Positions 3,101 to 50,410 are shown, counted from the first letter of the stretch. The stretch is 64,000 bases of DNA from a bacterium UBP8_UBA817 (GCA_945888435.1 CAMCZW010000008.1:2235-66234); one strand, 5' to 3'. Notes: a model not told the origin generated them from the letters alone. Numbers and translations are program-made.

Positions 3101-3341
3101 CGATCAGTTTGTCGGGCGTGTTTAAATCGGGGACATAGCCATAGCCCTGATTCTGTAAATCCTGAATAAATTCCCGCTCCAAGTCATATTCGCTTTGGTA
3201 GCTTTCTCTAACCTTCCATTCCTTGGTGTATTTATCCAGCACGATGAAGCTATTTGATTCGGCGATGGGCGTGGTGTAGTTAATCATTCTTTTTGCCTTT
3301 TTTTGATAACTGCAATTGCCTGGCGTTTTGCGCGCTGACAA
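186..3341 (-). CDS. hsdR: Type I restriction enzyme R subunit (HsdR), SF2 helicase/endonuclease
   Basis: 1051-aa ORF with Walker A (GSGKTLT) and DEAH-like (FDECHRS) helicase motifs, length and architecture typical of HsdR. It is the last gene of the hsdM..hsdS..hsdR operon. The true start may be the internal Met at 3287 (MINYTT, preceded by AAGG), giving an 8-nt overlap with the upstream gene. Confidence 0.93.
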
Positions 3342-25977: not shown

Positions 25978-25980
25978 ACT

Positions 25981-26445: not shown

Positions 26446-26455
26446 AATGCCTCCA

Positions 26456-27268: not shown

Positions 27269-27868
27269 ATGAAAAAAAACAAAACACTCATCACTATCAT
27301 CACAGCACTGGCCCTAATCGGGCACACCCACTTGGTCTCAGCAATCCAAATCGACGAATCAAGCTCTGAAATTACAATGAACCAAATTCTTCACTTCGGG
27401 TCATTCCCAGACGAAGCAATGAGAGATGCCCTCGGAAAAAACAGCTCTACGCTTAGAGGAACAGGTAATGGGCTAACAATCTTAGGTGGGGGATTCCAAG
27501 GGCTTCAACAAGAAATCGGTGACTTCGCAGACGAAGCACTCAACCCTGATGAAGATGTCTCCGCCGCAGCCACTACCCAAGCACTGGTTTACCCAAATCC
27601 ATTTAGACAAGAAACTGGGGCAAAATTAGGCTATGGATTATCCAAAGACTTAGAAATCGAAATCCAATTTTACGACATGCTCGCTCATCGAATTTTAGAA
27701 AAATCGTTTGAAAGAGGGGCTGTCGGTGGAAAAAAGGGATACAACCTGATCAGCATCGACAAAAACGACTTTGGAACCAATATCGATTTATCAGCCGGAG
27801 TTTATTTCTACTTGATCATCAATGAAGGAAAAGTATTGGCGAAAGGTAAAGCGGCAATCATCCCATGA
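27269..27868 (+). CDS. Small secreted protein with type IX secretion system C-terminal sorting domain (Por_Secre_tail-like)
   Basis: It has an N-terminal signal peptide. The C-terminal ~85 aa carry VYPNPF, ..IQFYDMLAHRI.. and ..AGVYFYLII..KVLAKGK.., which are characteristic T9SS type-A CTD motifs. Confidence 0.6.
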   Translation: MKKNKTLITIITALALIGHTHLVSAIQIDESSSEITMNQILHFGSFPDEAMRDALGKNSSTLRGTGNGLTILGGGFQGLQQEIGDFADEALNPDEDVSAAATTQALVYPNPFRQETGAKLGYGLSKDLEIEIQFYDMLAHRILEKSFERGAVGGKKGYNLISIDKNDFGTNIDLSAGVYFYLIINEGKVLAKGKAAIIP

Positions 27869-28818
27869 AAAAACACATTATTCTGTTAATTTTAATACTC
27901 GGACTAATCACACTATTCGCCAAGAATAGCGATGCTCAAGCCCGATTTTTTATGCCCACAGAAGTAGGTAGTTCGGCTGAAATGATCGCACGGGGAAATA
28001 TCGAAGGCTTCAGCAATACAGCCGAAGTCCTTTTAGAAAACCCAGCATCACTTCACACGATCAAACATTTTTCAGTATCCGCATTCACCACAACATTTAT
28101 GGATGAAGTAACTTACCAAGCCGTATCCATCGCCCTCAAAACAAAAAAAGGAGTCATCGGAGCGGCCTATATGTCTGCAGGTGTCGATGACATCACCAAA
28201 ACGTATCAAGATCAAGATGAAATCACAAATCCGCTAGGAATCATTATTCCAGTTGGAACATTTAAATACAGTACCGAAGTCGCTAAATTAAGCTACCAAT
28301 TTTCTCAAACAAAACGTCTTCACTGGGGAATATCTGGTGACTACTACGTCACTACAATCGACACAGTTAGAGGGACGGGATACAACATGGATGCCGGAGT
28401 CAAATATGACGGAAAAAAACTAGACATGGCACTAGCGATTAAAAACTTTTTACCTGGATATGATGTATCATATACGGGTGGCGAGTCAGATGGAAAAGAA
28501 GAAGTCCTACCAGCTGAGATTGTCTTTGTATCAAGATACACACTAGGCCCGATCAATTTATTTGGTCAAATTAAGTCAGGTGGCCGTTACGATCTAGTCA
28601 CGAAATCAGGTGCAATCAGCTATAAACCAGGATTTTTTCCATGGATAGAATTCACCGCTGGTTATAAAGAATTCGGAGTTCTTGATACAATTGAAACGAA
28701 CACGACCTTAGGAGTTGGGTTAACACTAGAAAACGTTAAATTTAATTACGCACTTGAATCAAGCGAGCATATCGAATTTGATAAAAAACATTATTTTTCT
28801 GTGGGGATAAAATTCTAA
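27865..28818 (+). CDS. Outer-membrane beta-barrel protein (possibly T9SS PorP/SprF- or PorQ-like)
   Basis: It has a signal peptide, alternating amphipathic strands and a C-terminal ...GIKF ending in Phe. It overlaps the upstream gene by 4 nt and sits 14 nt upstream of the giant gene. Confidence 0.4.
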   Translation: MKKHIILLILILGLITLFAKNSDAQARFFMPTEVGSSAEMIARGNIEGFSNTAEVLLENPASLHTIKHFSVSAFTTTFMDEVTYQAVSIALKTKKGVIGAAYMSAGVDDITKTYQDQDEITNPLGIIIPVGTFKYSTEVAKLSYQFSQTKRLHWGISGDYYVTTIDTVRGTGYNMDAGVKYDGKKLDMALAIKNFLPGYDVSYTGGESDGKEEVLPAEIVFVSRYTLGPINLFGQIKSGGRYDLVTKSGAISYKPGFFPWIEFTAGYKEFGVLDTIETNTTLGVGLTLENVKFNYALESSEHIEFDKKHYFSVGIKF

Positions 28819-28832: not shown

Positions 28833-31800
28833 ATGAAAATAAAATCAATCATTTGGAGTTGTTTTTTAATCTGTTTCCTTTGCAGTCCGATTACTGCAAG
28901 TGTAGAGCTCCAAGTGTCTGGAAGCCTTCCGCCTATTAACGGAACCTTTATTTCAGGTAGTCATGCCGCAACAATTGGGATTTATAAAGGCACTACAGGC
29001 ACCCCCGTATGGTCAGAGCCAATTGCCAGCGTAACATTCAGAAACGGAATGTTTACAACCATTATCGGAAAAGTCACGCCCCTTGAAGCAAGCTATTTAT
29101 ACGTCACAAATCCACATATTGGCATCACTCTCACAGACACCCCTCATACAATTCAATTTGTTAAACTCACCGCATCACCATACGCATTCAAAGCCGCGGT
29201 AGCAGAGCGCGCCCGTAAAGTCTCAGCCAATGTCATCACCGGAACAATGGTTTCAACAGCAAACTTATCAAAAGGGCTATATGTTAAAGCAAGTAGCCAA
29301 AATTACTCCCTATTCGTCAATGCAAATAGCGTAGGGATTGGGAAATCAAATCCAACCACCAAGCTCGATATAAACGGAATCATCAATGCCGACGGATTTA
29401 GAATTAGAGGAGAAGATATCGCAGGAGCTCTCTCCTGGAAACCTAACACCGTCATCACCCAAAATATTTACTTTAATACAGGCCGGGTAGGAATCGGAAC
29501 CTCCATCCCCCGCTACACATTAGAAGTTGCAGGCACCATTAATGCCTCTGAATTATTTACCAAATCTAGAAAAATCTCATCCACATTAGATTGGCAACGA
29601 TCTCCAGTCGCATCAGAAAATTTGTATTTTATTAACCTGGATAAAAAGGTCGGTATTGGAGTAGAAAATCCAAGATCAAAACTTCATGTATTAAACGAGA
29701 TTAGAGTATCCACCAACGTCTATCCTGCGGCGGTTGGTATGATTAGAAGATCCTCTGCAAATAATGAGATTGAAGGTTATACCACCAGGGGCTGGTTACC
29801 CCTCACCGGCGTACGAGGCGGCGGCCAAAAAGATCGTCTAACTTTTTTTACAACTCCTAAAAATATTAGCTCTAGCCCATTATTTCTTCAAAATCATACT
29901 AATTCTTTTGTAGGAGTTGGAGTCTCCGCCCCCAACTCAACACTTCAGATCAAAGAAACCAATTCTAATAAAAAATTATTTCAAGTAACTTCAACACAAA
30001 ATAAAACATTGCTAATGGTTGGCTCTACAGGCAACGTTGGGATCGGAACCCCTACTCCAAACCAAAAGCTAAAAGTAATTGGCAGCCTCGCTGCTGACGA
30101 TATCACACTAAACGGCCTATCTATCCTTCTCGCAGTATCAAAAGACTCTGTATGGCTATTAAACGCAAGTCATAATGTCTACTATATGTTAGGGAATGTC
30201 GGGATTGGCCAAAACAGACCTGAAAGCCTTTTAGAAATTGCCCAAAGAACCAACTCAAATGATGACCCCGCCATTACATTAACCAACGGTAGAAATGTCA
30301 GCTATACCATGGGAGTCGATAACGATAAGCCAGATACATTTAGAGTAGAGTTTGGAACCACGCTTGGATCAACATCTCCATTATTTGTCGCAAAAAATAA
30401 CTTTTTAGGTATTGGCTTAGAAACCCCCTTAGCGCCCCTTCATATCAACGGAAAAATAGGAACTGTTTTTAGCGGGACATTTTACGGAGTCCCAGAAGAA
30501 ACTGCACAAGAACTCGATCCGTTAACCGGTGATGAGCTTATCCCGACTCTTCCAAAAGAAGGTCCTGGGACTCGATTTTTATGGCAACCTCAAAGGGCAA
30601 TATTCAGAGCTGGCCAAGTGGAATCAACATCCCCTTACCTAAGAGGAGAAAATTGGGATAATGAAAACTCAGGCAAATTTTCAAACGCATTTGGACTAAA
30701 TAGTATCGGTAGCGGTAATTACACCACCGTCGCCGGTGGAAAAAATAATATCGGCAGTGGCGCCTATTCGACCGTAGCTGGTGGAGAAAATAACATTTCA
30801 GAAGGAGACTTTTCACTTGCTGTCGGTAAAAATGCGACCGCACTTCACGAAGGATCTTTTATTTTTCTCGACTCATCAGCAGCCCCAACATCAACTATTA
30901 AACACAGTCAATTTTTAGTATTCGCGTCACGAGGTATGGGGATTGGAACAACCCTAACCACGGTAGACGGCATCAGATCAGGCTTAACTATTAAACGAGA
31001 TAAAAGTAGTGGGAACATTCTAAGATTTATCGGTTACCCCACAGAAAATACAGGAACCGCCCTATCATCATCTGGAAATATGATTATCGGATCACTCACT
31101 CCGGGAAACGCCAAATTATCCATAATGGGGGCAATGAACATCGGCGGAACACCAAGAACCCCCTCAGGCAATATTATTACGGCCAATATTAAGCTCAGCG
31201 TCAACCGTGACACCCCCGGTCTTTACAATACCTTCATAAAATCGATTGAAGCCATCACAACACCTGGCATGGCCATTTTAAGTGGCCCAGGGCACATCGG
31301 CATGGCCATTATTCCAAATATGTTTACAGCAGCAGACCTATTAACCGGACTTCAAGTAGGAAGCGGAAGTGTATTAGCTAGTGAGTACATTCAACCCGAC
31401 GGAACCCGCCTTGGAAAAGAAGCCGTCATTGTGTGGTTAGAAAATTCAGACGGAGATGTTTACTTCGTCTCTGGAAACACAGGAATTGGGATGGCATCAC
31501 CAAATAGTATGTTGGAACTATCTAATATCGGGAATACATTGTTTGCAAACCCACAAAATCCGGCAATTAGCTTCACCTCCTCACCCATTAGCTACAGTAT
31601 AGGGGTCAAAAGATCCGGAAACTCAGCACTCCGTATCATTAACGGCATCAATCTAACGACAGACACACCAGCATTTGCAATCCATGATAATAAAATCGGG
31701 ATTAAAACAGATACCCCGCTCGCCATGCTCCATGTCAACGGAAACGCAATTTTTAGAAGTGGCCTTGCTGTTGGAACCACCAATCAACAAGCCAATCAAT

Positions 31801-34800
31801 TGACTGTCCCTAGCGTTATGACCCGAGGCCTTAATATCAGAGGCGACGTCGTCACCTCTAGCGGAGACAAATGGAGCATAACTGGCAATACAGTCTACAA
31901 ATCATTACTTGATCCAGTAGGGATTGGAACAAGCACTCCAAGAACTGACCTTGAAGTCATTGGAATAGTCTCTGCAAACAGTTTTGTAGTTAAAAACCAA
32001 TTCGATGTTTTAGGGAATACCAAAGTCAATCGAATTGATTTCAATCTCGACGAATCTGAATTTAGATTTGAAGTACAAAATGAAAAACTATTTTTGGATG
32101 ATGTTCCTCTATCCGATATTTTATCGAGAGGGTTACCATCCGATACCAGCATTGGCCCGATCGTCATTTGGGTAGTAGATCCAACTCGAGATACTGATCA
32201 AATATTAAGCGAAACCGACATGATCTGGTATTCAGAAACCCCAAGAAGAATTGGCACTTTAGTCTCATCTCATAACATCAATATCGGAAATACCATAAAA
32301 GACTCAAGCACCTCCTTCGAAAAAACAATCCAAGTTAAAGTAGGCACCCAAAGCATACTTGATGGCCTCAGTTTACAGGGCAATATCACTCACGACGGAA
32401 CTCTCTCTCATTCTAAAAATTTCACGCTTAGATCAAGCAGATTAGTAATTGATGAAAGATGGTCAACACCGAGCACGACCAATGTTCAATATGCAAATCA
32501 TATATTTGATATCTACGGAAAATCCGTCAAATTAAAAAATTCCAACGATGGCGCAGGTACCACTAGCATGATTAACCAAGCACCCGCCACGGGAGTTCGA
32601 GTCAACGTCAGCGATGTAAAACCTCAAACCAGCGCAGAAAAAGTATATTCAGCGATCTTTATGGGGGATGTCGGGATTAAAAAATTCCCAGCTGCAATCA
32701 CTGGTGAATATATATTAGACGTTAAAGGGATCGTTTCTGCAAATCGATTTATCATTTCAAAACGACTCAGAATCACTACCATCAATGCCAACAACATTCT
32801 ATTTATTAATGAAGCAACCAATGCAATTGGAATTGGGACATCAACCCCAACCACAACACTAGAAGTAAAAAATGAAATTAAAACAACACATCTTAGAGCA
32901 AGAAGCCTAGATACCAACAAATTAGTAGTCCAAACAAAAAGCTTATATGTCGATAATCAAAAAGTCGGTATGGGCACAATTACACCTGAAAGTTTACTCC
33001 ACATCAGTAAAACACTCACAAGAACACCCACTACTGAATATATTAACTTTTTAATCACAACCAACATCCAAACTACCCAAAAAAATAATAAAGGACTAGA
33101 AATCGTCTTAGCTACTAGCGCCAACTCCACATTTGGGACACTCACAACACCAAAAACGGTTAAAGGTATGGACATCACAATGGCCAATTTTAATAGTCAT
33201 GACAGTGGTCAAGTCATTGGGATTAGCGCCGAAACCAAAAGACAAAACAATGCCTACTCTGCAATTTTCAAAGGGGGTAACGTTGGTATCGGAGTTCCAA
33301 ATCCGGTTTACCCTCTCCAAGTATCAGGGACGATTCGAGCCGACAATGTCCTTCAAATCAACCTCTTAACCCGACAAGAAGCTGCGTCATTTAATTATCT
33401 AAATGTCCTTTCACCAACTGATAATACAATGATTTCAGGGACAGCAATTGCTCGAAATATGGTTGTTCGGAAAATGAAACAAAGCAGCCGTTCTTTTATA
33501 GTGAATAATCAAATTAATCTACCGACTATCACACTTCAGGTCACCGCGAATGGATTTCTTGAAGCCATCAATTTAATTGCAAGCGAAAGCATAAAAACAA
33601 AAGACATGACATCAAGCAGACTACTATCGGGTAAAGATGCTGAGTTTCAAGGCCTTACCATCGGGATTGCCGAAGAAACCTTAGACACAGTGAGAGTTCA
33701 GACAAGCGCAAATGCCACGCAAATAATCGCAGATAAAAGCATTCTCGCAGGCGCTGCAAAAATCAACTCAACTACGCTCAGTGTTCTTCCATATGGATTT
33801 GTCGGAATCAATGAAGCGACACCGAGAGCCATCCTAGACGTCAAACTCACTAACGACACGTTCGTTACACTTCATAACAATAGCAATACCGAAAATACCA
33901 GCGTCGGGATTATCTTCACCCCAGCATCCGCAACCAATATTCGAAATATTGGTTCAGGGATTGTTGCTATCAAGACAACCGCAGATATATCCGCTTCAGA
34001 ATTAGCGTTCATGACAAATCCAGTAAGTAACACACCTCAAGAGAGAATGAGGATGTTTAACGAGGGCGGTATCCGAATCGGAGCCCCGACGGTCTCTGAA
34101 ATAGCCCCTAAAAAGAGTCATCTGCTCGTTAAAGGCACCGCCTTAGTTTCAGGGATAAGTACGGTAAATCTATACGTAAACACAGAAACCATTCGAAACA
34201 ACGGTAATATTCGAATTGCAAACTCAATCAAAATTTTTGACCAAGATTTTATCGTCTCAAGAAATTTAATGACCAATACGGTTCAGCTTCAAGAATTATC
34301 AAGTCATCCCGTCACAAGCAATCAAAAATCAATTTTATACGCCTTCAATAATGGTAGCGCAGCCGGGATTTACTATGGAACCATATTAGAAGACGGAGTA
34401 TTCGCAACAGGAAATATGGAAGATACCTTTACCGGAACAAGAAAAGTAATCCCTGCATTTAATAGTAGCCACAGCATCGTCGATACCAATGTCATGCACT
34501 GGACTACAAGCAATATCAACTCGGTCGGTATTGGAAAATTAACCGTCGGATCTCATATCACATCAAACGTAGTGGGATCAGAAGCATCTCAGTTACATGT
34601 AGCAGGTGTCACCAACTCAGTATTAGCCGATAAAACCCTTAAAAAATTGCAATTAGAATTTAAAGACAGAAACACAGCAGGCTTCAGAACATTCCAAGGC
34701 TATAAATTAACCTCCACATTCGCCACATCAAAGTTAGCCGAAAATGAACAAATGATTGGATTAGACGTCAATCTCACTACACTTGCAAGTGAAAGTAGAC

Positions 34801-37800
34801 GGTTTGGCAACGGCACTATCCTAAGAGGTACAAAATACGCAGCTCTATTCCGAGGTGCTCCAGTAGGAATTGGGAATGCCACACCAAGCAGCCAGCTTCA
34901 TGTAGTAGAAACAACATCAATCAACGCCTTTATCGTAGATGGCCATCAAGCCGGAGTAACGACCAATGCACTCACATTAAAATCAAATGGATACCTTGGA
35001 TTTGGAACCAATGCCCCGGAAGCAAAAGTGAGCATAAAAACACCAGCAACAGATACCACATTTAAAATACAAGGGGTAACAGAAAATATACTGATGCTCA
35101 TCACTAACGGCGGTAAAATCGGAATTAATCAATCTAACCCAACCTATAATCTAGATATTTTGGGGACACTAAAAGCAAAGAAAGCAACCTCAAATATACT
35201 ACTTGGAAAAACAATGAATATTAGAAATCAAGCCCTCGTAGTAGATCAAAACGGCTACGTAGGGATTAATAATTCATCTCCCGCCGCACAATTAGACCTG
35301 ATCAAAACATTCACTACATCTGATAGTAATGCTCTATATAATCTTCAAAAAATAAACTTAACCACATCAGGTGCCATAAGCAAAGGCATCACCGGCGTCG
35401 AGTACAAAATCGCAGTAAACACCAATACTATCGTAGGAATTCCGGCCCAAAGTAAAACAGTCACAGGAGCAAAATTTAACCTCTCTAACCTTGCTGCACA
35501 GTCCATCTCAGCAAAAATCATTGGTCTCCAAGTGCTAGTCACCAGAAATACCAGCCCTGTCGCAATCTTCAATGGAGGAAAAGTAGGAATTGGGGTTACA
35601 GAGCCTACTTATATGCTTCATGTTAATGGCGGCATAAAAGCACGGCATGTCACCCTAAATTCAAGCAGCAGAACACAAGCAACTGCAATCACAACCAACA
35701 CACTGAGTGCAATTAATGCAGGCCTCGGTAATATGACTATTAATAATAATAAACATATCATTATTCGGGGGACACTCCAGGCCGCAAACTTTATCAAAGA
35801 ATTTCCCTTTTTAAATCGAGCCCCAACTGCAAACCCTGTATTTTTACTTGCACAGGTTGTCACTGCAAACCGACTTCGAATCGGAACAAGTAGTATTTCA
35901 ACAACCACCCCAGTCATCATTCAAGGAACTTCCATATTTACGGGCGGAAGCTTAGTGATTAAGGACACTCCAGGAATCCTACAAAATCCATCTGCAAATC
36001 TACACATCTATGGCAACAGCGAGACGAGCCAGAAAGTGGCATTATTGGTTCTTAAAAATAACATTCCTATTCTAAGAGTCGATAAAGTCGGAAATGTGGG
36101 CTCATTTGCTGCCACTCCAGGTGGAAACGTTAACCCAACAGCCAATTTATACCTACAAAGTGATTTTGGAAGAGTAGTCAGCATCGAAGATCCCGTATCA
36201 AAAGTATTTATCGTCAGTCAAAACACATTAGTTACACTCGGAAATCAACGAATAGGACCAATGAGTGTTCTCTCCATCAAACAAAAAACAGCAGATACAC
36301 CAATCCTAAGAGTAGAAAGTGCACAAGTCCCCTACACAATGTTCATTCCAGCATCCCAATTAATAGGGCTAGGAACATCCCTGCCTCTAGCAGCGCTTCA
36401 TGTATCAGGATCCATGATCATCGATAAAGTTGGAACGCCAAAACTCGTTCAAATCAGCCCCACTGGAAGTATTGGCTTAGGAACTCCGGCAACACGTTTC
36501 ACTCTAAGTACATTAGAAAATATGCAACTCTCAAGCAGCAATATGTCTGGAGGAAGTGTCCCAACTGAAATCTCAACATTTACCGGAAATGGAACCCTAA
36601 TGAGAATTGGAACACGCCATCTCTTTTTTGGATTACAACCACATCCAACATTGGTCAACACTTACGACACTCATATTCAAGCATCTTCAGCAAGTGATAG
36701 CCAATATATTTTCAGAAATGGAGATACTGAAATCATGCGTTTAGTCGATACAAAATTAGGAGTTGGAACTTCTCGCCCTTCCGCTAATATTCATGTCGTC
36801 GGAGCATCTGGATCGCTGACTCCATTGTTTAATGTCAGCAGAGGTACCTCCAAAAACATTTTATTTATCAATGCCACCGGAGAAATTGTCATTAATGGGA
36901 CAAGGGCATCAGCAGACATCGATGTAAACGGAAATGTAAGCAGTTTAGGATTCCAAAATCATCCAGATGGAACTGAGTTCACAGCCCCCACCCTCAACGT
37001 AACGAATGCTAAATTTGCAGCAAGAAGTATATTCGATATCATCAAAACAACGAGCGCCAATAAAACTCATAAACTTGAAACGATTCGAATCAATTTAGAG
37101 AGAGACCATTCAAAAGCACTCACTGCATTTGATTTTGGGATTACAGGTGGATCTACATTCCGCAACATCGGAACTAACGCAAATGCTTATGGTCTCCGCA
37201 TCGATGTCAACGGAATCAAATTACCAGATCCAACATTCCAAAATCAAACAGCCTTCAAATATGCAGCGATCTTTAGAGGTGGAAACGTTGGGATTGGAAC
37301 ACTCACCCCAGACGAAGCCACCCTCAACGTAGTAATTACAACAACCAATGGCACAGTACTTCAGTCTGGAATCGTAGTTTCAATGAGAACTACCCCCAAT
37401 ATCATACCAGGAGGGATAGCTGATAGAGGAAGTCAACTTCAATTCGTCATTAACCCATCCTATAACATTCCACTCACTCAACGATTCGCAGTGCCTACAG
37501 ACAGTTTTAAAAGTATTGTCTACACATTAGGACAAGGCCAATTCTACCTTGGAGGATCCACATTTTATGCAACCACCGCAATCTCAAATCAGGTCATGAA
37601 ATCACTTAAAGACAACGGAGTCTTAACCTCCGATGGACGAGTCGACGGAGTGATTACATCATATGCAAACCTTCTCACTCAGCTTAGGAATAAATATTTA
37701 AGTGGATTTGTGCAAGATTACATTACAACCAGTGACGTTGCGAAAGTATTAACTCCGTTTATCATCGAAAACTCATTCACACTTAAAACAAAAAATCTGG

Positions 37801-39209
37801 ATAGTGACGCAAATAAAATCAACTCACCCCTCACCCTATATTCAGGTACCTATCCAATCATCCCGATTACAACAGGGTCCGAAGACTCCATCCAAAAACA
37901 AGCCTTCCAATTTGTAGGCCGTGTCTTAATTAACGCAGGCCCAATTAGTGGAAGCGCACTCGATAATGAAGGCCCTGACAGCTATGGAAACCGAATGCCC
38001 GTATTAATTGTCAGCGGCGACATGAGAGTCGGAGCTAAAGTAAATAAAACTGAAACAGAATTTGCAGGCCAAGGAAAAAAACTAATTTTCTCAGGGGGAT
38101 ATCTTATCAATAGCAGTACGACCGATGGTAATAACGAAGATCCAATGCATATCACAAGAGTCAACACCAACGACCAGGCATCAGACCTGCAAATTTCGAT
38201 TGGAGAAGATCACACCATTAACAATGCCGCATTCAAAATAGGGGTTTCCGAAATAACCAATCAAAAATGGCATACATCCCTTGTCGCAAGAACTTTTTCA
38301 GAAACCTCAAATGCAAATACATCAATGGTCGGTATCGGATTAAACAATCCAACCACAGCCTTCTATGTTAAAGGGGTTGCCTCATTTAATATGAGACCGG
38401 ATGTCACCTCAAATACTACTACATTTGTAACCAACAACATCGCTCACCGCGCTCTCGTTCTCTTTGAAAACACGACTGCCAATGCCAACTCCCTTCTCAT
38501 CAAACATAGTGCGGAAGCTTCTAACGGGGTTGTCGGATCCGACTCTAATTTTATTAGCTTCAAATCATCAATATCACCCACAGGAGCACTGATCAGCTTA
38601 GGCGCAATTGAAGGGAACGGAGAAACAGGGGTTCAGCTCACATCTCCAGAAGCGGACTATGCAGAGTATTTACCAAAACTCTATAACAGCGAAGAAATTA
38701 GCTCAGGTCAAATTGTCGGGGTATTTAACGGCAAAGTCAGCAAGGTCACCAAGGGCGCAGATCAAATCATGGTCACCAGTGTGGCTCCAATTATCGCGGG
38801 TAACTGGCAAGGGGACACTAAAACCAAACAAGTCCTCGTCGCATTCCTAGGCCAAGTTCCAATTAAAATCAGAGGAGCAGTATCAGCAGGAGACTATGTC
38901 ATCCCATCAGGACTTAATGACGGGACTGGAATTGCCATTAAACCCAATGAAATCAACGCCAAAAATAGTGATCTCATTTTAGGCCGTGCCTGGGGGATTA
39001 ATTCAGTCGATAAAGTGAGCACCGTAACAGTGTTACTTGGATTAACAAAATCTCCAGCCCACACTATTTCGTCACAAAAAGTAGAAACATTGGCCGAAAA
39101 ATTAATCACTTTAGAAAGTAATATCGCTCAACTAGAAACAACATATCAAAATGTTCTTCAAAAACAACGTGATCAAATTAAACTTCTTAAAGCAAAGGTA
39201 AAAAAATAA
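28833..39209 (+). CDS. Giant secreted fibre-like repeat protein 1 (3458 aa): signal peptide, ~29 (V/I)GIGTxxPxxxLHVxG-core repeats, conserved C-terminal module + coiled coil
   Basis: It is an uninterrupted 10.4-kb ORF with a signal peptide ([22 protein letters not shown]|S). Repeat cores recur every ~40-150 aa (for example [34 protein letters not shown]). It is paralogous to the 40137 gene. Confidence 0.85.
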
Positions 39210-39211
39210 AA

Positions 39212-40147
39212 ATGATCAAATCTGCAATAAGTGGGTTTTTTAATTACCTCCAATATGAGAAAAAACTCTCAAAAAATTCGCTTGCCGCGTATCAAGTAGA
39301 TTTAGAGCAATTTACAATATATTGTCCAGAAGCAATTTCATCTTCCGTAGATTGTGAAAAATATATCTCGTATATTCAAAATCAAGTCTACAAACCAGCC
39401 ACGCTCAAAAGAAAAGCTTCCTCCATACAACAGTTTTTAGACTACCTCTATCATGATTCTTGGATCACTTCCAAAATTGAACTTCCAATAACCACACCAA
39501 AAATTCCAAAGACACTTCCAAAAGTAATGACCAAAGTCCAAATCGATTCCATTATTTCAGGCCTATTAAAAGTAAGTAAAACCCCATTGAGGGACCAGAT
39601 CGTCATCAACTTACTCTACAAATGTGGCCTCAGAGTTGATGAATGCGTTCATATCACGATAGAAAATATTAATCGCAATCTCACCATCAAAGTAATTGGA
39701 AAACGATCTAAAGAACGGATTATTCCAATCAGCAAAGAAACACTTAAACTTATTAAAAGTTATATCAAAAAAGAACGTACCTCACTTGAGAAATCGCCGT
39801 CTCCGTACTTGATTTTAAACCGGAGAGGCACGAACTTAACCAGGCAAGGGATTACCTTCATAATCAACAAAAATACTTTGGGGCCACTCACAACCCCTCA
39901 TATATTCAGACATAGTTTTGCCACTCATCTTTTAGAACGGGATGCGTCAATCCGAGAAGTACAAGAACTATTAGGTCACAGCTCCATAATTACCACACAA
40001 AAATACACACAGGTATCCACTAAAAAAAGAAGAAGTATCTATGATATCGCACATCCAAGAAGTCGCCATGCAAGAAAATTATTAGATTCAACGATGATAT
40101 GTTTAATGGAAGAACAAAGGAAAAATAAGGTACAATATGGCAAATAG
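39212..40147 (+). CDS. Tyrosine site-specific recombinase, XerD/XerC-like
   Basis: 311 aa with an N-terminal SAM-like core-binding domain (..[15 protein letters not shown]..). Catalytic-domain residues R (GLRVDE), H-x-x-R ([12 protein letters not shown]) and Y (..[15 protein letters not shown]) are present. It starts 2 nt after the stop of giant gene 1 and overlaps giant gene 2. Confidence 0.85.
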
Positions 40148-40172
40148 ATTTCCCACCATTAATTGGAGTCCC

Positions 40173-43100
40173 ATGAGAAAAATTTGCCTCGCATTTTTGA
40201 CAGCACTTTTGTTCACTGCCGGTGCGCATGCACAAAACACACCTGCGTATATTACATTCCAAGGAAGCATGTCTACCGCAACCGGCGGACTTGTAGAAGG
40301 CTCAAAAGAAATCAACTTGGCAATTACAGAAGGTAAAAACGGTCGTAAAACTTATGAGAAAACCGGAGTTACCACACTATTCGTCAATGGAAGTTGTAGT
40401 GTCGTCCTCGGTCCATTAACCACAACACAACTCGACATTGTATCTCCACACCTTCAAATTACATTAGATGGCTTATCCGCCTCATTTCCAATTCCAGCAT
40501 CGGCCTACGCAATTCAAGCCAGACTGGCCGACACTGTTAAAGCAGTTGATGCAGGAACAATCACAGGCACATTTACTTCCACTGTAAATATCAACAGCAA
40601 TTTATTTGTTAAAACCAATGTATTAACCGTTGTCAGCAGAAATGTAGGTATCGGTACAAGCGCACCTGCATACCCATTAGATGTAGTCGGAGAAGTCAAC
40701 GCTACAGGATTCAAAGTCAACGGAAGAGATATTGAAAGCGTCTTATCATGGCAAAAAAATGGAAGTACCCTCTATTACAACACAGGCAGAGTCGGAATCG
40801 CTTCAACAAATCCAACCACCCTACTAGATGTCGCCGGGACCATAAATGCGCGTGAATATCGACTCAATGGCGTCGAGCTCTCTAAAGCACTTGCTAACGA
40901 ACTCGCATGGAAACCAGCAATTAGAGACGGAGATATCTACTTTAACGACGGGAAACCAAATTCATCAGGAAGAATTGTAGGCAGCGTCGGTATCGGGACT
41001 AGTCAACCAGAAAGCCGTCTTGATGTCCGAGGTGAAATTAGAATTGGGGAAGCTGCTTTCGCACCAGGCTTAGGTACCATCCAATATGTCGGGGACGACT
41101 TTTTAGGGTATACCCCAGACGGTTGGGTATCCTTAATCGGGTTACAAGGTCAAGGAAATGCCAACCAAATTACCTACTGGACTGACACAGATAATATCGG
41201 AGGATCCGATAGCTTAGTCTGGGATTATACCAATCAAAAAATGGGGATTGGAACAAGCAATCCAACTGCACAATTAACCGTCAAATCAGTATCTGACAAC
41301 CGAGCAGTACTCAATGTCACAGATAAAAATAATAAAAGCTTACTCTATATCTCGTCTCGAAACGTCGGGATTGGAACAACCACCTCTAACGTTGCACTTA
41401 AAGTTAAAGGGACTGTAGATGCAGAAAATTACTTTTTAAATGGCGTCCCTATTGCGGCCGCATTACGATCATCCTCATTATGGAATTTCCAAAACGATGG
41501 ACGAATTTTTTATAGTAATGGCAACGTTGGTATCGGGACCACAGAGCCTCGAAATTTACTCGAATTAGCCTCTAGTCCATCAGTAAATCCAATCATTACC
41601 TTTGACATTAAAGACGTTAATTTATTTAGTATGGGGATTGATAGCAGAACCCCTTCAGCATTTATTTTGTCTCAAGGAAGTGACCTGTCAAAACCAATTT
41701 TCGTATTCAAAGAAAATAAAATCGGTGTCGGATTAAATAATCCAAGCGCTAATCTTCAAGTCAGCGGCAATGGCGGCATCTTGTTCACGGGAGAATTTGG
41801 ATCGAACGATCAAGTACAAGCGAGCGGAGCCGGGACCAGACTTATGTGGATACCTTCCAAAGCAGCCTTTAGAGCTGGCCACGTCGTCGCAAATCAATGG
41901 GACCATGCCAATATTGGTAATCATTCCGTTGCATTAGGTTACAACGTCACGGCCAATGGGCTCGCATCAACCGTCGTCGGGGGATACGAAAACTGGGCAA
42001 AGGGGGATTACTCCAGTGTCCTAGGAGGATTCCAAAATAGAGCTGAAGGCAATTATTCATTCGCTGCTGGCTACAAAGCCCTTGCTAACCAAATCGGCAC
42101 CTTCGTATGGGCCGATTATTCTCCAACCGCTCCCGTTCAAACATTTTCATCCACACAACGAGACCAGTTCCTAGTCCGCGCAAGTAATGGGGTCGGAATT
42201 AACACCAACCAAACCAATCAGACCTCCTTAACCGTCGCAAGAAAAATTCCAAGCGAATACATATTTAGAGCCATCGGAAATACGAATGCCCCAAATGCAT
42301 TAGTCGTCACAACTTCAGGCAATATCGGAATTGGGACTTCTGACCCTGGCACAGCAAAACTAGCAGTTATTTCTGGAAGAGTAGGAATCGGAACGACAGA
42401 CCCAATTGCCCCACTTACCATAAGTCCTAATGCAACTGATCAATATGTCTTTGTGGCCTACAGAGAAGATGGTAATCCAGCAATGTTTATTAGACGAGAT
42501 GGAAGAATTGCCATCGGTCATGCATTAAACTTCACATTCCCAGACGATGTGACAGTTGCGGTTGCTGGCAGTTTTGGTGGCCCTACATTCAAAAAAGTAG
42601 ACCCTCGTAATCCAAGTGCATCCGTCATTATTGGTGGTAACGCCGGTTCTCCATGGCTAGTTCCATCAGAGAACAACAACAACACCTTCTTCAACAGAGG
42701 ACGAGTAGGGATAGGAACCTCCGCCCCAAGATCACTTCTTGAATTATCAAACGCCAATGGAATCGCTCCAGTTATGACTTTTAATGTTGATAACTCCACA
42801 TTTTATAGTATGGGGGTTACCAAAAATAAATTTACTATTCAACCAACCCGTGGACTAAATGCAAGCTCTCCCCTATTTACGTTAGACGGTAATGGCATCG
42901 GTATTGGAATTGGGTATAAAACACCAAGCGCCTCCCTACATGTCGCAGGATCTTCAATTTTATCTGGAAATATCGCAGTAGGAACCAGCAATGTAAGCTC
43001 TATATTCAATATCAACGTCGGCGGCCGATTAAATACACAGCAACTATTTATCGACGGAGTCGAATACAATCCAGTTCCATCTAAATGGTTAACAGGCGCA

Positions 43101-46100
43101 GGCTCACAAATCTACTATAACGATGGAAACATTGGGATTGGAACATCCACACCAAGATCCAAATTAGAAGTACTAGGAACAATCTCTGCTAATGCCATCG
43201 TCCACTCCGGGACATTCACATTAAATGGTCGTCTAAGAACAACTGAGCTCCACCTGAGAGATACAGTCGCGCCTACACTTAAATACGGTAGAGTTATCGT
43301 TGACGATGATGAATTAATTTATATCGACCCAAGCGATCGAAGAAAAGTACTATCATCTCCACTTCAAAGAGACCGAAGCCTTACCAATTCAGGATATCTC
43401 GCTCACTGGTCAAGTGATTCAGATATAGGAGTCACCAATATTTTATGGGATCGCAGCAAAAAATCGCTTGATGTCTCAGGAAACATTGATTTAAGCAGTA
43501 CATTTTCAGAACCAAACGGAATCAAGATCAAGAGTAAATTATTAATGGGTGTCCCTTCAGGAATCAGCCTAACCACAACACTTAACCATAGTGGCGACTT
43601 AAGAAGAATTAAAGGTTATACAGGTGAAGACATAACCCTGAATATCAACCAAAACTGGGGCAACTCAACCGAAATCGTCACCATTAAAGGGATGAATTTA
43701 GAAATCACACAAGAAGATGCTAGTTTACTCCTTAACAGAGCCCGAGTCGTGGGATTACATGTCGATGTATCCAGCGTCAACGTTAATACCGCACAACGAG
43801 CATCCAAAGCAGCCGCTGTCTTTTTAGGTGGAAACGTTGGTATCGGATTAGAAAACCCGAGAGAAGCCCTTGAAGTTAATGGAACAGTCTCTGCGAACTA
43901 CTTCAACCTAACGGGTGGATTATTTGTTCCAGAATTATCCGTCAACACAAACGCTCTCGTTGCCTATCGAGATTCACTATCATTACTACCAAGAGTGGGA
44001 ATTGGACTCACAAATCCTTCAACCGAACTTGAAGTAAGAGGAACCACATCAACTAACATCATGACAATCACCGGCGGATTAACAGCCACCACGCTCAACG
44101 TTAACAGCGGAACCCTATTCGTAAATAGCGCTGGCCAAATCGGGATCGGAACCACCCTACCCAATGGGCAAATCGAAATTAAAAAAACATTACTATCAAC
44201 CACAGCAGATCCATTTATTGGTGAGAAAATAAACATTGTCATCGATGGCGCAGGGACGGACCAAACGTTTTCATTTAATCAAAATTTATCTGGGTTAAAA
44301 ATTAACTTTGCAAGTAATACAGGCAGCCAAATTGGAAGTGGCAAAAAAGCCATTGGTACTGACATTAATGCAACAAGAATGACCGTCGTAACCCAAAATA
44401 CATTAATTGGGCTTAATGTTGATGTAACAGGCACTGGCGGAAAACGATATGCAGGATTATTTTTAGGCGGAAAAGTGGGGATTGGAGTCACTCAGCCTCT
44501 CGCAGAATTACATGTCAGCGGAAGCATTTTAGCCGATAACCTATTCTTAAATGGAACTTTAGAATCCGAAAGAGCCACCTTTAATAGATTGACCGTCAAC
44601 ACGCTCGCACGCTTCAACGGATCCGTCACAATCAACCAATTAGAAGTACTGGGAACACTCACCGCAAATACATTTGTACTTGAAACAGCCCTTGAAGCCC
44701 AAAATGCAAATTTTGCAACAATTAATGCAAAATCAGCATCAATCAACACCCTTACCAAAACTCGGGATTTAACTATCAGAAGAAAACTAACTGCCCCTCA
44801 AGGAATATTTTCAGGCGGAGTCGGAATTGGAACCCCCGCACCAAGTAGCGGATTAAGTGTTAACGGCCCCCTACTCGCAACCAACATTGCAGCCTCCGAA
44901 ACTCTAAGTCTTACATCCGGCACAATGAATATCCTTGCGGGGACTCTATACGCCATCAATGGAAAAGTAGGGATTGGAACCACTCAACCACAAAACCTAC
45001 TTCACATTAAAACATCACGTGCTACAGAGTTTGATCCAACAGATACTCAAACATGGAATGCAATGAGAATTCAAAATGCAAACGACACTCTTAATACAGC
45101 CGCAAGTCTTTTATTTTTAGTCGATACCAATAGCCCCTCAATTAATATCGGGTCCGCCATTGGTGCGTTGCGTAGCACAGCTTCAAGGGGTGAACACGGA
45201 TCATCCCTATACTTCGCAACTGACCCCGCAACGGATGTCCCCACCATTAGAATGTTCATTTCATCAGAAGGGAATGTCGGGATTGGAACAACGACTCCAA
45301 CATCCATGCTTCATGTCAACGGAAGTTTAAAAGTAGACAATGTGGCGACTCTAAACACTTTAGCAACATCTCTCATTAGATCATCCGGAGAATTGGTCTT
45401 TAGACCATCTGACACCATCATCGTTGAAGGGTATGTCAGTACCAACCAAGTCATTCAAGTTAATAATGGATTAAGCTTCAAACACGCAACAACTATCCCA
45501 ACCCAAAGGACAGGGTATGGAACCCTTTACGTCGATGGAAGAAGTAACGATTTATTCTTCTTAAAACCAAGCGGAGCTTCAGTCAACATTACCCGAGGCT
45601 TTACGGGTAAAGCCTATAGAATCCCATTCTTCAACTCTCAAGGTCAACTTGACGATGACACAGAGCTATACTGGAATAACGCCACAAAAACATTCAGAAT
45701 CGGTACAGCCAATGTAGTAGCAATCGTTGAACACCGAGTAACAGTTGATAATCTAATCAATCAAAGTCTTGCCGCAGAAAAAATCACAATGGACTTTGGA
45801 GATCGAACCACTGCCAGCTCAGCGATATTTAGAGGGCTCCAAATTAATCTCACAGGACAAACACCCTCAGATCCAGATAATTTTGGAAGACTCGCTCAAA
45901 ATGAAACAGCCATCGGACTAGATATCGATCTATCGACACTAAGATCTGAAAGAAGCACTTCCCAATCACTTGGTGGGGTTGTTTTACAAGGATTTAAATA
46001 CGCAGCCCTATTTAGAGGTGGAAGCGTCGGAGTAGGCACTGCAACTCCAATAGCAGGCCTCCATGTAGTCAGCGAAACTGCCGGAAAAGCAGCCTTTAGA

Positions 46101-49100
46101 GTCGATACTACTCGAAAAGATTCTGTAGTTATGACCAATGCATTAGTCGTGAGTTCCAACAGCTTAGTCGGTATCGGAATAGCAGATCCAACCGCTAAAC
46201 TTCATATCAAAGCCAATGATGATCCATTTATTAATGACGCTGACGAAGCGGTTTTCAAAGCAACAAAAACAGATGGTAGTCCACTATTCATCGTTAAAAA
46301 TAATGGAAGAGTCGGAATCGGAACAACATCTCCTGTATCAGCACTCACTGTTTCAGGAAACTTGTTTGCGACCACAGCATCCTTTAATGAAATCACCGCG
46401 ACCACTCTCAACGTCTCCAACGGTGGTTTATTTGTAAACGCAGCAGGAGAAGTCGGATTTGGAACAACTCAACCTCAAGGAAATCTCAGCTTCTCAAAAA
46501 CGATTAATGCCGCCAATATTCCGGCAGCAGGCTTTATCTCTCAAAAAATGTTACTTAACCTCAACGGAGGAACTGACTCGTTAACATTTAACCTTAACCG
46601 AGATATTACCGGCATGGATATCGCTATCCAATCCGCTGCAGCCAGTCAATTAGGCTCAGGAAGCACAGCCCGAGGGCTTTCAATCGATCTAAGGCAAGTC
46701 GCTCTAGACACCAGTAGTAAGATTGTCGGGTTAGACATCGATGTCACAGGCGCAACAGGAACAAGATACGCCGCAATTTTGAATGGGGGACGCGTCGGTA
46801 TCGGGGTAACAAACCCAACCACCACATTAGACGTCTCTGGAGATATTAAAGCAACCGATCTTGATTTAACTGGTCGATTAACCGCAGGTCAAATTACTGC
46901 AAATCAGTTAGTCGTTCTCCAAACATCTATATTTAATGGATCCATTACAGCCAATAATTTAGTCGCCACCACCATTTCTGCAAATAACATCACATTAAGT
47001 GGCTTGTTTAGAATTTCAACCGCATCCATTACAACGCTTAATGCCAATATCGCAACGTTCAATAAATTAGGGATACGAGTCAGCTCCCCACGACAACCAT
47101 TAGATGTCTCTGGAAATGCCATCATCTCAGGCGGATTATTAGGGGTAGGCGTCACTAACCCAACCGCACTCCTTCATATCGGGACATCAACATCAGCAAG
47201 CCCACTCAGAGTCCAAATTAACAATGGCTTCTCAAACCCATACGCACTAGTAGTCAGTGGAAACGGACGTATCGGGATCAGCACTTCAAACCCAGTCGCA
47301 AAATTAAGTATTTCTAAAGTACTAGGAGATACCGATGATTTATTGTTAATCGAAAAATCAGACGCAACCCCTCTGATGAAAATTACCAATGCAGGTCTCG
47401 CAGGGATTGGGACCGCAGTTCCAGTAGCTCAGTTACATATCAAGTCAACCGCAAGCGTATCGCCATTAAGAATTGATGGATCAACATCAAATCCCCTACT
47501 TCATATCGGGCCTACAGGGAACGTCGGGGTAGGAATTAGTAATCCAGCAGCAACGCTCCATGTTAGCGGGAATATCCCTCTGATTGTTGGAAACGCCACC
47601 AACCCATATTCACTCTATGTTGGAGACACCGGACGTGTCGGGGTTGGAACGTCAGCATTAACCTACCGATTCAATGTCAACGGCAAAATGTTAATGGGAT
47701 CATTAGGATCAATCACATTACCAAGTTGGATTGAGTCTAATAACAATATTGGATTAATTTCAGCAAAAGGAGCTGATTTTTCAATCCTAGGTCTAGAAAG
47801 ACGAAGTGGAGGCACCACTGACTATGACTCCGTAATTCAGTGGGGATCAAGTTCAGATGACAGCCTTTTATTTAAAAACAATGCAAATCAAACTATCATG
47901 CAACTCATTGGAAGCGGAAAACTAGGGATTAATGCCACTCCAACCGCAGCACTTCATGTCAGTGGTAATACACCTCTTATCATTCAAAGTGCAAGCCGAC
48001 CATTTGCATTAATCGTCTCAAGCAACGGATTTGTAGGGATTAATACCAATCGTCCTCTAGTTGCCCTCGATGTTAACGGAACCATTCGTGCAAAAGGATT
48101 TAGTGTCACTCATGAAAGTCTGAACGCATCAACCGTCAATATTACAAAACAAATGTCACTTCTAAGAACCGTCACAACTAACATCGCAGTTACAATGCAA
48201 AATATTAGATTAAATCTTGAAAATGATATTAACAATGAAGTAGTAGGCCTAGATATCGTCCTCGACTCTCTGCCAAACGCAGCCCTCGGTGGCGCACGGG
48301 ATTACTCATTATTTAATACCAATGCCTATGGACTTAAAGTCGACATGACGGGGCTTCTAACCACAGACCCCACATTAGGTGGAAGTTCAAATGGCAAAAA
48401 ATACGCAGCCGCTTTCTTAGGTGGCGCAGTGGGGATTGGATTAACTAACCCAGATACCACTCTACAAGTCGTAGGTCCTGCCGGCGGCAATATTGCAAAA
48501 TTTGGAAGTATAGCAGCAGACTTAACAATTAAAGACGAGAATAACGGTACCATCCTTATGTCAATAAGAAATCTAATTAGCCGTGATACGGAAGCGCAAA
48601 AAACACTCTATCTTTCTGGAGATAAAGTAGGGATTGGAGTCGATCCACAAACCGATGAGGCTAGTGTTAAATTTGTAGTCAATGGAGATATTAGAGTTGG
48701 GATGAAAACCAGCGCATCAACCAGCAGTGGTAACCGAGTTTACTTCTCTGGCGGACCAGATTTGAGCCTTACCCAAGACAATGACAACAATAGCCCATTA
48801 TGGATTGGACGAAGCAACGTCAGAGCCAACCAATCTGAATTACTAGTCAATGCCGGTAACGGTGACGGGTTAGATCGATTTGTGGTTGGGTTTACAAAAA
48901 GTACAACATTCAGACCGGTCTTACAGGTTATCCCATCTGTAAATGCCGCGGGTACTCTATATAAAAGTAGAGTGGGTATCAGTGATGGATCTAGCACAAC
49001 ATTTAAACCATCTGCACAGCTCCATGTATTTGGATCAACAAGTGGCAGTGCAAGCAGTATTTCAAGCCACCTTGTCACGTTTGAGAACAACGGCGGTGAA

Positions 49101-50319: not shown

Positions 50320-50410
50320 CACAAAATCCTGCTATCATACTAGGTTCGGAGACTGCCTATAACAGGCACTTTTTGTAAGACTATTTCAAAAAAAGTCGGA
50401 GGCTAACCTA

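What the first reader, a model, noticed from the sequence alone, without database searches (positions are those of the whole stretch)
27269..28818. T9SS-type C-terminal sorting domain protein and OM beta-barrel at the head of the giant-protein operon, in an organism that uses strong Shine-Dalgarno sites
Seen in sequence: the 199-aa protein ends with VYPNPF...IQFYDML...AGVYFYLII...KVLAKGK, matching the Por secretion tail (T9SS type-A CTD) consensus as I recall it. The next gene overlaps it by 4 nt and encodes a signal-peptide beta-barrel ending in Phe. Established knowledge: in Flavobacterium the giant adhesin SprB depends on the PorP-like SprF encoded beside it. Inference: the barrel may be a PorP/SprF-like adaptor tethering the giant fibres. 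Genes here carry AAGGAG/GGAGG sites, and Bacteroidia generally lack SD sites, so the host is probably a different FCB-group or otherwise unusual lineage.
Basis: partly seen in the sequence, partly recalled or inferred. Interest (0 to 1): 0.55.

Follow-up and report, generated by a model that had tools for sequence, protein, structure and literature searches.

The report
PorV-like barrel with partner CTD protein
Two overlapping genes in a marine Margulisbacteria genome, a lineage related to Cyanobacteria, encode a small secreted protein that is little more than a type IX secretion sorting domain and an outer-membrane barrel most like PorV; they sit ahead of two giant fibre genes, and type IX secretion parts have not been described in this lineage.

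Summary
ORF 27269-27868 (199 aa) has a signal peptide, a disordered linker and a C-terminal seven-strand Ig domain. That domain just passes TIGR04183 (23.6 bits, cut-off 23); 19 of 20 homologues also match. ORF 27865-28818 overlaps it by 4 nt, has a signal peptide, ends in Phe and models as a 14-strand barrel (pLDDT 92).

The interpretation needs correcting.
- The giant proteins have signal peptides but no CTD was detected, so an SprB-SprF-type tether is not supported. Only the small protein carries the CTD.
- The host is a Marinamargulisbacteria, not a member of the FCB group.
- The operon genes lack Shine-Dalgarno sites.

The order CTD protein, barrel, giant fibre recurs in dozens of Marinamargulisbacteria loci, often beside sepF. 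My best reading is a docking pair like PorZ-PorQ that anchors or assembles the fibres. I found no type IX core genes in the window or in any neighbourhood I examined, but I could not scan a whole genome.

The parts
27269..27868 (+). Small secreted CTD protein (199 aa). Signal peptide is about residues 1-25. Residues about 26-99 are a poorly structured region with two conserved short motifs (LHFGS, LTILGGGF). Residues 100-199 (nt 27566-27865) are a seven-strand Ig-like domain of the T9SS type A CTD kind.
   Evidence: ORF. TIGR04183 23.6 bits against 23. 19 of 20 homologues hit TIGR04183, 15 of 20 hit the C-terminal end of the PorU model, and 3 hit PorZ. In the AlphaFold2 model, residues 100-199 have pLDDT about 95 and seven strands, while the N-terminal part is below 50. 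Invariant residues are L106, Y108, P109, P111, G177, V178, Y179, F180, G193, K194.
27865..28818 (+). Outer-membrane 14-strand barrel (317 aa) of the PorV/PorQ/PorP (FadL-like) superfamily, with a signal peptide, an N-terminal helical segment and a C-terminal Phe.
28833..39209 (+). Giant fibre protein 1 (3458 aa). It has a signal peptide, many copies of a VGIGTxxPxxxLxVxG-type repeat, a weak Peptidase_G2-like C-terminal region and a terminal stretch that reads as a coiled coil. No CTD was detected.
   Evidence: Translation. No Pfam family at E<=0.01. The C-terminal 349 aa hit Peptidase_G2 at 21.7 bits against 25, E 1.5e-4. The repeats are visible at DNA level. No relative in the PDB by sequence.
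39212..40147 (+). XerC/XerD-like tyrosine recombinase (311 aa) wedged between the two giant genes. Its role in the system is unknown.
   Evidence: Phage_integrase 127 bits. TIGR02224 XerC 243 bits, below the cut-off of 335. It starts 2 nt after giant 1 ends and overlaps giant 2 by 11 nt.
40137..49814 (+). Giant fibre protein 2 (3225 aa), a paralogue of giant 1 with the same signal peptide, repeats and C-terminal ADYAEYLPK... region plus coiled-coil-like end.
   Evidence: Translation. Both window giants match the same fibre ORFs in related loci at about 27-30% identity. Only a weak bactofilin-like Pfam hit.
49819..50319 (+). CxxCxxCC (YkgJ-type) small protein. It may be the last gene of the transcription unit; membership is uncertain.
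   Evidence: PF03692 30 bits. It starts 4 nt after giant 2 ends. A terminator-like hairpin lies at 50354-50368, but such sites are no more frequent than in shuffled sequence.

Best explanation
The two genes encode a matched pair.

Shown:
- One product is a 14-strand outer-membrane barrel of the PorV/PorQ family.
- The other is a small Sec-exported protein whose only folded part is a type A CTD-like Ig domain.
- The pair is conserved in Marinamargulisbacteria, directly upstream of giant fibre genes whose products carry signal peptides.

Inferred:
- The CTD docks non-covalently on its cognate barrel and stays attached. This is how the uncleaved CTDs of PorU and PorZ stay on PorV and PorQ, and how type B CTD proteins stay on PorP/SprF.
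- The conserved but unstructured N-terminal part of the small protein, about 75 aa, then serves as the adaptor that holds or nucleates the giant fibres at the outer membrane. The fibres resemble trimeric phage tail fibres.

Not established: how the fibres, or the CTD protein itself, cross the outer membrane. A type IX translocon may or may not exist elsewhere in the genome.
For: Homology of both parts
- The invariant residues fall in the YPNP, GVYF and KGK positions. I equate these with CTD motifs B, D and E from my own knowledge of the consensus. The review PMC10202324 says B, D and E are modelled to contact PorV loops and that the motif E lysines are needed for secretion.
- The model has the seven-strand Ig fold described for type A CTDs.
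- The barrel matches PorV/PorQ profiles in all 31 homologues, and PorV is its best structural match.

Coupling of the two genes
- They overlap by 4 nt.
- Among 31 metagenome loci found with the CTD profile alone, 22 have the barrel immediately downstream and 3 more are cut by the contig end.
- The same pairing occurs in 8 of 16 species-representative loci, and in L025 at 32% barrel identity.

Link to the fibres
- A giant fibre-like ORF follows the barrel in L007, L008, L012, L016, L018, L025, L028-L031, L035, L040, L042, L043, L054 and L059.

The domain looks like a dedicated partner rather than a general tag
- An exhaustive profile search gave 708 cluster representatives at E<=1e-10. Of the best 150, nearly all are 100-320 aa (most 175-235) with the domain at the extreme C-terminus.

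Precedent
- PorU and PorZ keep their CTDs bound to PorV and PorQ, and cognate PorV-like barrels are proposed to protect CTDs from cleavage (PMC10202324).
- Type B CTD proteins are proposed to anchor by binding PorP/SprF, on co-purification and cross-linking evidence (PMC9143113).
Against: - No physical interaction was tested. I could not model the complex.
- The barrel is below the curated PorV/PorQ cut-off (44.9 against 90 bits), and the CTD passes only one of two curated cut-offs.
- The Ig fold is generic. Foldseek ranks unrelated Ig domains above the T9SS CTD hits, and the CTD profile also touches FlgD-Ig repeat proteins of a Firmicute.
- Two larger proteins (P0206, 1080 aa; P0219, 854 aa) carry this CTD subtype at their C-terminus like ordinary cargo. 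That points to a general sorting pathway.
- If there is no translocon, the CTD protein would stay in the periplasm, where no CTD-barrel docking has been described.
- The link to the fibres rests on gene order alone. Conservation along the giants shows no distinct docking segment.
- Some CTD genes are orphans with no barrel next to them (L041, L045, L051).
Confidence: 0.5

Rival explanations
1. Marinamargulisbacteria have a complete type IX secretion system, for example acquired from marine Bacteroidota. The barrel is then a PorV/PorQ-type shuttle or attachment barrel, and the 199-aa protein is an ordinary substrate or accessory. Their position next to the fibres would reflect co-regulation, not anchoring.
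For: - The type A CTD motifs are intact.
- Cargo-like proteins P0219 and P0206 carry the same CTD subtype. P0219 passes both curated cut-offs, TIGR04183 at 31.9 bits and PF18962 at 28.4 bits.
- A separate, well-conserved stand-alone barrel paralogue exists in at least 10 genomes and could be a general PorV.
- NCBI's pipeline already labels relatives 'T9SS type A sorting domain-containing protein' and 'PorP/SprF' in Margulisbacteria MAGs.
Against: - No T9SS core family was found in the window or in the related neighbourhoods whose genes I checked.
- Reviews restrict T9SS to the FCB superphylum, and no paper pairs Margulisbacteria with T9SS.
- Nearly all carriers of this CTD subtype are small barrel-linked proteins, unlike the diverse cargo of real T9SS organisms.
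- The taxon of P0219 and P0206 is unknown.
Confidence: 0.25
2. The barrel is a FadL/BamG-type outer-membrane protein used for hydrophobic-substrate uptake or outer-membrane biogenesis. The small Ig-domain protein would be an unrelated secreted protein, and the resemblance to T9SS parts only reflects shared folds.
- The stand-alone paralogue lies in a conserved gene cluster that includes lpxB.
- Nine of 31 homologues touch TraF_2 and one touches Toluene_X.
- The Ig fold is generic.
Against: - The sequence profiles point specifically to PorV/PorQ (31 of 31) and not to FadL (1 of 31).
- The partner's matches are specifically to T9SS CTD models, including the CTDs of PorU and PorZ.
- The overlapping pair is conserved across barrels only 32-46% identical.
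Confidence: 0.1
3. The pair is itself a dedicated export device for the giant fibres, a two-partner-like system in which the barrel is the channel and the small protein a plug or chaperone.
For: - The order pair-then-fibre is strictly conserved.
- The fibres have Sec signal peptides but no recognisable outer-membrane targeting signal.
Against: - From general knowledge, a 14-strand FadL-type barrel whose lumen is occupied by its own N-terminal segment is too narrow for a folded or trimeric fibre. The model places a helical N-terminal segment ahead of the barrel strands.
- There is no POTRA or TpsB-like feature.
Confidence: 0.08

Closest known systems
PorQ-PorZ and PorV-PorU pairs of the Porphyromonas gingivalis T9SS attachment complex
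   Same: A 14-strand PorV-family barrel holds a partner protein through that partner's retained type A CTD (PMC10202324). Here the barrel family matches the PorV/PorQ and PorQ models, and the partner's CTD matches the CTD ends of the PorU and PorZ models.
   Different: - The partner here is only about 200 aa, with no enzymatic or LPS-binding body.
- The two genes overlap and head a fibre operon.
- The host is Marinamargulisbacteria, outside the FCB superphylum.
- No sortase or translocon was seen.
- The barrel is below the family cut-off.
SprF-SprB (Flavobacterium johnsoniae) and PorP-PG1035 (P. gingivalis)
   Same: A PorP-like barrel encoded beside a very large surface adhesin is reported to bind it, and the authors propose this as the anchoring mechanism (PMC9143113).
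   Different: - The CTD in those systems is type B and is part of the adhesin itself.
- Here the giants have no detectable CTD and the CTD is type A-like on a separate small protein.
- The barrel scores lower on the PorP/SprF models than on PorV/PorQ.
PorV, the outer-membrane shuttle of the T9SS (PDB 6H3I chain F)
   Different: - Only 11-15% sequence identity.
- PorV works with the SprA translocon, which was not found here.
- These barrels occur as several paralogues per genome. One MAG has three.
Phage tail fibres and tailspikes with a C-terminal intramolecular chaperone (Peptidase_G2 type, as I recall for phi29 gp12)
   Same: Both giants end with an ADYAEY-containing region that weakly matches PF11962 (21.7 bits, E 1.5e-4). 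The Pfam pre-annotation of the L025 fibre also lists Peptidase_G2 as faint.
   Different: - The match is below the Pfam cut-off.
- The proteins are cellular, carry Sec signals and are about 3,200-3,500 aa long.
- Autocleavage and trimerisation are untested.

Membership tests
T9SS type A CTD (TIGR04183 / PF18962) | Score at or above the curated cut-off of the NCBIfam model TIGR04183 | tested here: met
   23.6 bits against a cut-off of 23, so marginal. 19 of 20 homologues match, best E 7.2e-10.
T9SS type A CTD (TIGR04183 / PF18962) | Score at or above the Pfam gathering threshold of PF18962 | tested here: not met
   15.7 bits against 27. Seven of 21 database homologues carry a precomputed PF18962 hit.
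T9SS type A CTD (TIGR04183 / PF18962) | Seven-strand Ig-like sandwich at the extreme C-terminus of a Sec-exported protein, with conserved motifs B, D and E | tested here: met
   The model of residues 100-199 has seven strands at pLDDT about 95. The invariant residues are YPNP, GVYF and GK, which I equate with motifs B, D and E. The fold description is from PMC10202324. The fold itself is generic.
T9SS type A CTD (TIGR04183 / PF18962) | Export depends on the T9SS translocon; the CTD is recognised by PorV and cleaved by PorU, or retained | not testable with these tools
   This needs genetics or proteomics. No cultured host exists.
PorV/PorQ family (NF033709, NF033711, NF033710) | Score at or above the curated cut-off | tested here: not met
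   NF033709 44.9 bits against 90, and PorQ 37.2 against 220. The relation is significant all the same: E 1e-11, and 31 of 31 homologues hit, best 5.9e-23.
PorV/PorQ family (NF033709, NF033711, NF033710) | 14-strand FadL-like barrel closest in structure to PorV | tested here: met
PorV/PorQ family (NF033709, NF033711, NF033710) | Binds CTDs of T9SS proteins | not testable with these tools
   Inferred only from the conserved, overlapping gene pair.
PorP/SprF family (PF11751 / TIGR03519) | Score at or above the curated cut-off | tested here: not met
   PF11751 17.7 bits against 22.3. Eight of 31 homologues hit PF11751 and 7 of 31 hit TIGR03519.
PorP/SprF family (PF11751 / TIGR03519) | The neighbouring large cargo carries a type B CTD (PF13585 / TIGR04131) | tested here: not met
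   Neither giant has a CHU_C or Por_Secre_tail hit. The C-terminal 349 aa of giant 1 hit only Peptidase_G2 and coiled-coil models. TIGR04131 itself was not scanned on the giants.
Type IX secretion system (whole system) | Core genes porK/L/M/N (gldK/L/M/N), sprA/sov, porU and porW in the same genome | not testable with these tools
   None in the 64-kb window, nor in the neighbourhoods whose genes I checked. No whole-genome scan was possible.
Type IX secretion system (whole system) | Host belongs to Bacteroidota or the FCB superphylum, the distribution stated in reviews | tested here: not met
   All 16 species-representative loci carrying the barrel are Marinamargulisbacteria or Margulisiibacteriota MAGs or SAGs. 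Synteny and identity tie the window to them. The reviews are cited.
FadL/TodX transporters (PF03349) | Profile match to Toluene_X | tested here: not met
Peptidase_G2 intramolecular chaperone domain (PF11962), for the giant fibres | Score at or above the gathering threshold | tested here: inconclusive
   21.7 bits against 25, E 1.5e-4, covering part of the profile only.

The most novel reading that the evidence does not exclude
A CTD-plus-PorV-like-barrel docking module works on its own, without a type IX translocon, as the outer-membrane anchor for giant phage-fibre-like surface proteins in Marinamargulisbacteria, a Terrabacteria lineage sibling to Cyanobacteria. The CTD-barrel interaction would then be older than, or separable from, the T9SS. 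It would be a stand-alone surface-attachment device outside the FCB superphylum.
Probability: 0.3. Interest if true: 0.8.

Novelty: new variant of a known kind. Interest (0 to 1): 0.6.

Why it matters
Type IX secretion and its CTD and PorV parts are described as confined to the Bacteroidota/FCB superphylum. No paper in the searched library links them to Margulisbacteria.

Here a CTD-barrel pair is vertically conserved in an abundant, uncultured marine lineage related to Cyanobacteria, with paralogues in at least one genome. It sits at the head of operons for some of that lineage's giant genes. Margulisbacteria are already noted as enriched in very large, uncharacterised proteins.

Either outcome would be new.
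- If a full T9SS exists there, its known range expands beyond FCB.
- If it does not, the CTD-barrel interaction is a free-standing anchoring module, which bears on how the T9SS attachment complex evolved.

It also gives a concrete handle on how these giant fibres are held on the cell: two small genes to model, express or delete.

Tried and rejected
- **PDB sequence-profile searches.** The barrel family returned only chance hits (spermidine synthase, E 0.16). The CTD family returned one weak hit to the C-terminal part of a Flavobacteriaceae ice-binding protein (E 0.59). Giant 1 returned nothing.
- **Naming the organism from exact-sequence cluster look-ups.** The window proteins and the L023 proteins are in the collection but carry no organism names. 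The taxonomy therefore rests on named homologues and on synteny.
- **Placing the cargo-like CTD protein P0219 taxonomically.** Its contig L023 shares no gene with my Marinamargulisbacteria loci, and its GC content is uninformative.
- **Looking for recombination substrates around the Xer-like gene.** I found only the short degenerate fibre repeat (60-75% identity) and one chance-level inverted repeat. A shufflon or cassette model is not supported.
- **Promoter and terminator scans.** Counts are at or below those in shuffled sequence.
- **Searching the giants for a conserved docking segment.** Windowed identity across six fibres is flat, 0.17-0.42.
- **Looking for T9SS core families among unannotated neighbours in L020, L021 and L023-L025.** None was found.
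Rejected for the operon genes themselves.

Full report
**1. The observation**

- ORF 27269-27868 encodes 199 aa. It has a cleavable-looking signal peptide (...HLVSA/IQ) and the quoted C-terminal motifs.
- ORF 27865-28818 overlaps it by the 4-nt ATGA. It encodes 317 aa with a signal peptide and the ending ...SVGIKF.
- A 3458-aa ORF starts 14 nt later.
- It is followed by a 311-aa tyrosine recombinase, a 3225-aa paralogue of the giant and a small CxxCxxCC protein. All are on the + strand with gaps of at most 14 nt or small overlaps.

**2. What the two proteins are**

The small protein:
- It just passes NCBIfam TIGR04183 (23.6 bits, cut-off 23) but not Pfam PF18962 (15.7 against 27).
- The family-level signal is clear. 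19 of 20 homologues hit TIGR04183, best E 7e-10. 15 of 20 also hit the C-terminal end (positions 994-1075 of 1095) of the PorU model, and 3 hit PorZ. I read that region of the PorU model as PorU's own CTD. According to PMC10202324, PorU and PorZ are the two T9SS proteins whose CTDs are kept and stay bound to PorV and PorQ.
- In the alignment the invariant residues are Y108, P109, P111, G177, V178, Y179, F180, G193 and K194. I equate these with CTD motifs B, D and E. The review models those motifs as the ones contacting the PorV loops.
- AlphaFold2 gives a confident seven-strand sandwich for residues 100-199 (pLDDT about 95) and no confident structure for residues 20-99.
- The fold search returns generic Ig domains. 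A T9SS substrate CTD (8glk_D) ranks 8th and PorU (6za2) 10th. The structure is consistent with a CTD but does not prove one.

The barrel:
- It matches NCBIfam PorV/PorQ (NF033709, 44.9 bits, E 1e-11) and PorQ (37.2 bits), both below their cut-offs. Pfam PorP_SprF reaches only 17.7 bits against 22.3.
- Across 31 homologues, 31 hit PorV/PorQ, 29 hit PorQ and 18 hit PorV2. Only 7-8 hit the PorP/SprF models.
- The AlphaFold2 model (pLDDT 92, pTM 0.83) has 14 strands and a helical N-terminal segment.

**3. Host and conservation**

Named homologues of both proteins come from Candidatus Margulisiibacteriota or Marinamargulisbacteria. All 16 loci recovered from one-genome-per-species contigs are from that lineage.

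The window is syntenic with them. The block RseP-MazG-SepF-YggS lies divergently upstream of CTD protein, barrel and giant in L012, L028-L031, L040, L042, L043, L054 and L059. Identities to the window range from about 35% to 80%.

That is right, but the host is outside the FCB group.

Shine-Dalgarno use is moderate overall (12 of 39 ORFs against 9% background) and absent from the first four operon genes.

**4. Strength of the gene association**

- A metagenome scan seeded only with the CTD profile returned 31 loci. In 22 the barrel is the next ORF, and 3 are cut by the contig end. Three carry orphan CTD genes, one has a fibre gene directly after the CTD gene, and two are distant hits.
- Wherever enough sequence follows the barrel, a fibre-like giant ORF comes next in most cases.
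- A second class of barrel has no CTD partner. It sits in a conserved lpxB-pdf-dcd-RNase T context and forms one tight clade in a distance tree.

**5. General tag or dedicated partner?**

An exhaustive HMM search over 1.84 billion cluster representatives found 3117 hits at E<=1e-3 and 708 at E<=1e-10. The best 150 are almost all 100-320 aa (most 175-235) with the domain at the extreme C-terminus.

Exceptions:
- FlgD-Ig repeat proteins, one from Acetivibrio. This is a reminder that the fold family is broad.
- Two cargo-like proteins. P0206 is 1080 aa and, from its sequence, appears to contain FN3-like repeats. P0219 is 854 aa with lectin-like matches and passes both curated CTD cut-offs. I could not determine their taxon.

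**6. The giants**

- Both have signal peptides and dozens of VGIGTxxPxxxLxVxG-type repeats. I detected no CTD.
- Both have a C-terminal ADYAEYLPK... region. In giant 1 it weakly matches the Peptidase_G2 intramolecular-chaperone domain (21.7 bits, E 1.5e-4). It is followed by a stretch that reads as a coiled coil.
- This resembles phage tail fibres. Trimerisation and autocleavage are inferred, not shown.

**7. Type IX core genes**

None is present in the window or in the related neighbourhoods whose genes I checked.

Reviews state that the T9SS is restricted to Bacteroidota/FCB. No paper in the library pairs Margulisbacteria with T9SS. NCBI's automatic annotation has already put T9SS-type labels on relatives of both proteins.

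**8. Interpretation**

- Best supported (confidence about 0.5): a cognate CTD-barrel docking pair, comparable to PorZ-PorQ or PorU-PorV, that anchors or assembles the giant fibres. The homology and the gene coupling are shown. The docking and the fibre link are inferred.
- Main rival (about 0.25): a complete T9SS elsewhere in the genome, with these two genes as ordinary parts of it.
- Minor rivals: a FadL/BamG-type role with only fold-level resemblance, and a dedicated export channel.

**9. Verdict**

I rate it a new variant of a known kind, in a lineage where that kind has not been described, with interest 0.6.

Noticed in passing
window 39212-40147 (+): A XerC/XerD-like tyrosine recombinase gene (TIGR02224 243 bits, below the equivalog cut-off of 335) is wedged between the two giant fibre genes. 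It starts 2 nt after giant 1 ends and overlaps giant 2 by 11 nt. I found no long direct or inverted repeats that could act as recombination sites.
   Followed up: partly
window 186-9604 (-): A type I restriction-modification island (HsdR, HsdS, HsdM) is interleaved with Bro-N, YhcG-type PDDEXK nuclease, Fic/DOC and RhuM genes. Its GC content is 0.465-0.494, against 0.395-0.46 in the rest of the window, so it may have been acquired horizontally.
   Followed up: no
L009, L010, L013, L014, L015, L017, L024, L026, L027 (barrel at about 10001-10950 in most): A stand-alone paralogue of the barrel has no CTD partner. It sits in a conserved lpxB - peptide deformylase - dCTP deaminase - RNase T-like exonuclease context in many Marinamargulisbacteria. 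It forms a single short-branched clade, and several members hit Pfam PorP_SprF. It may be a housekeeping PorV- or BamG-like protein.
   Followed up: partly
window 28833-39209 and 40137-49814; also L007, L016, L028 and others: The giant proteins carry dozens of VGIGTxxPxxxLxVxG-type repeats and an ADYAEYLPK... C-terminal region weakly matching the Peptidase_G2 intramolecular chaperone, followed by a stretch that reads as a coiled coil. Two papers note that Margulisbacteria are enriched in very large, uncharacterised proteins.
   Followed up: partly
L023 8913-11477 (P0219), and P0206: Two larger secreted proteins end in the same CTD subtype, like ordinary T9SS cargo. P0219 is 854 aa with lectin-like matches. 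P0206 is 1080 aa and appears, from its sequence, to contain FN3-like repeats. The host taxon could not be determined. L023 also encodes LpxR, a pilin-like N_methyl protein and a TIGR03545 family protein.
   Followed up: partly
L025 3889-10004: In a 1.92-Mb contig, the CTD-barrel-fibre set (1355-aa fibre) is preceded by three further genes: a 1169-aa protein with coiled-coil (SMC-type) matches and faint SLH and FlgD_ig hits, a 328-aa protein with no match, and a 243-aa protein with a collagen-like stretch. The fibre locus can therefore be larger than in the window.
   Followed up: no
window 24140-27103 (-): The cell-division gene sepF lies in a cluster with yggS, mazG and an RseP-type protease, next to genes for outer-membrane proteins. 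The fibre locus keeps this position across many Marinamargulisbacteria.
   Followed up: partly
L041 5520-6182, L045 471-1160: An orphan subfamily of the small CTD proteins (P0066/P0067 type) has a long hydrophobic N-terminus and no adjacent barrel. A convergent unrelated gene follows it.
   Followed up: no
window 22084-23130 (+): A 348-aa ORF has no Pfam family and only a weak match to a GntD-like (guanitoxin pathway) hydroxylase model (38 bits against a cut-off of 345). It is conserved at the same position in L001.
   Followed up: no
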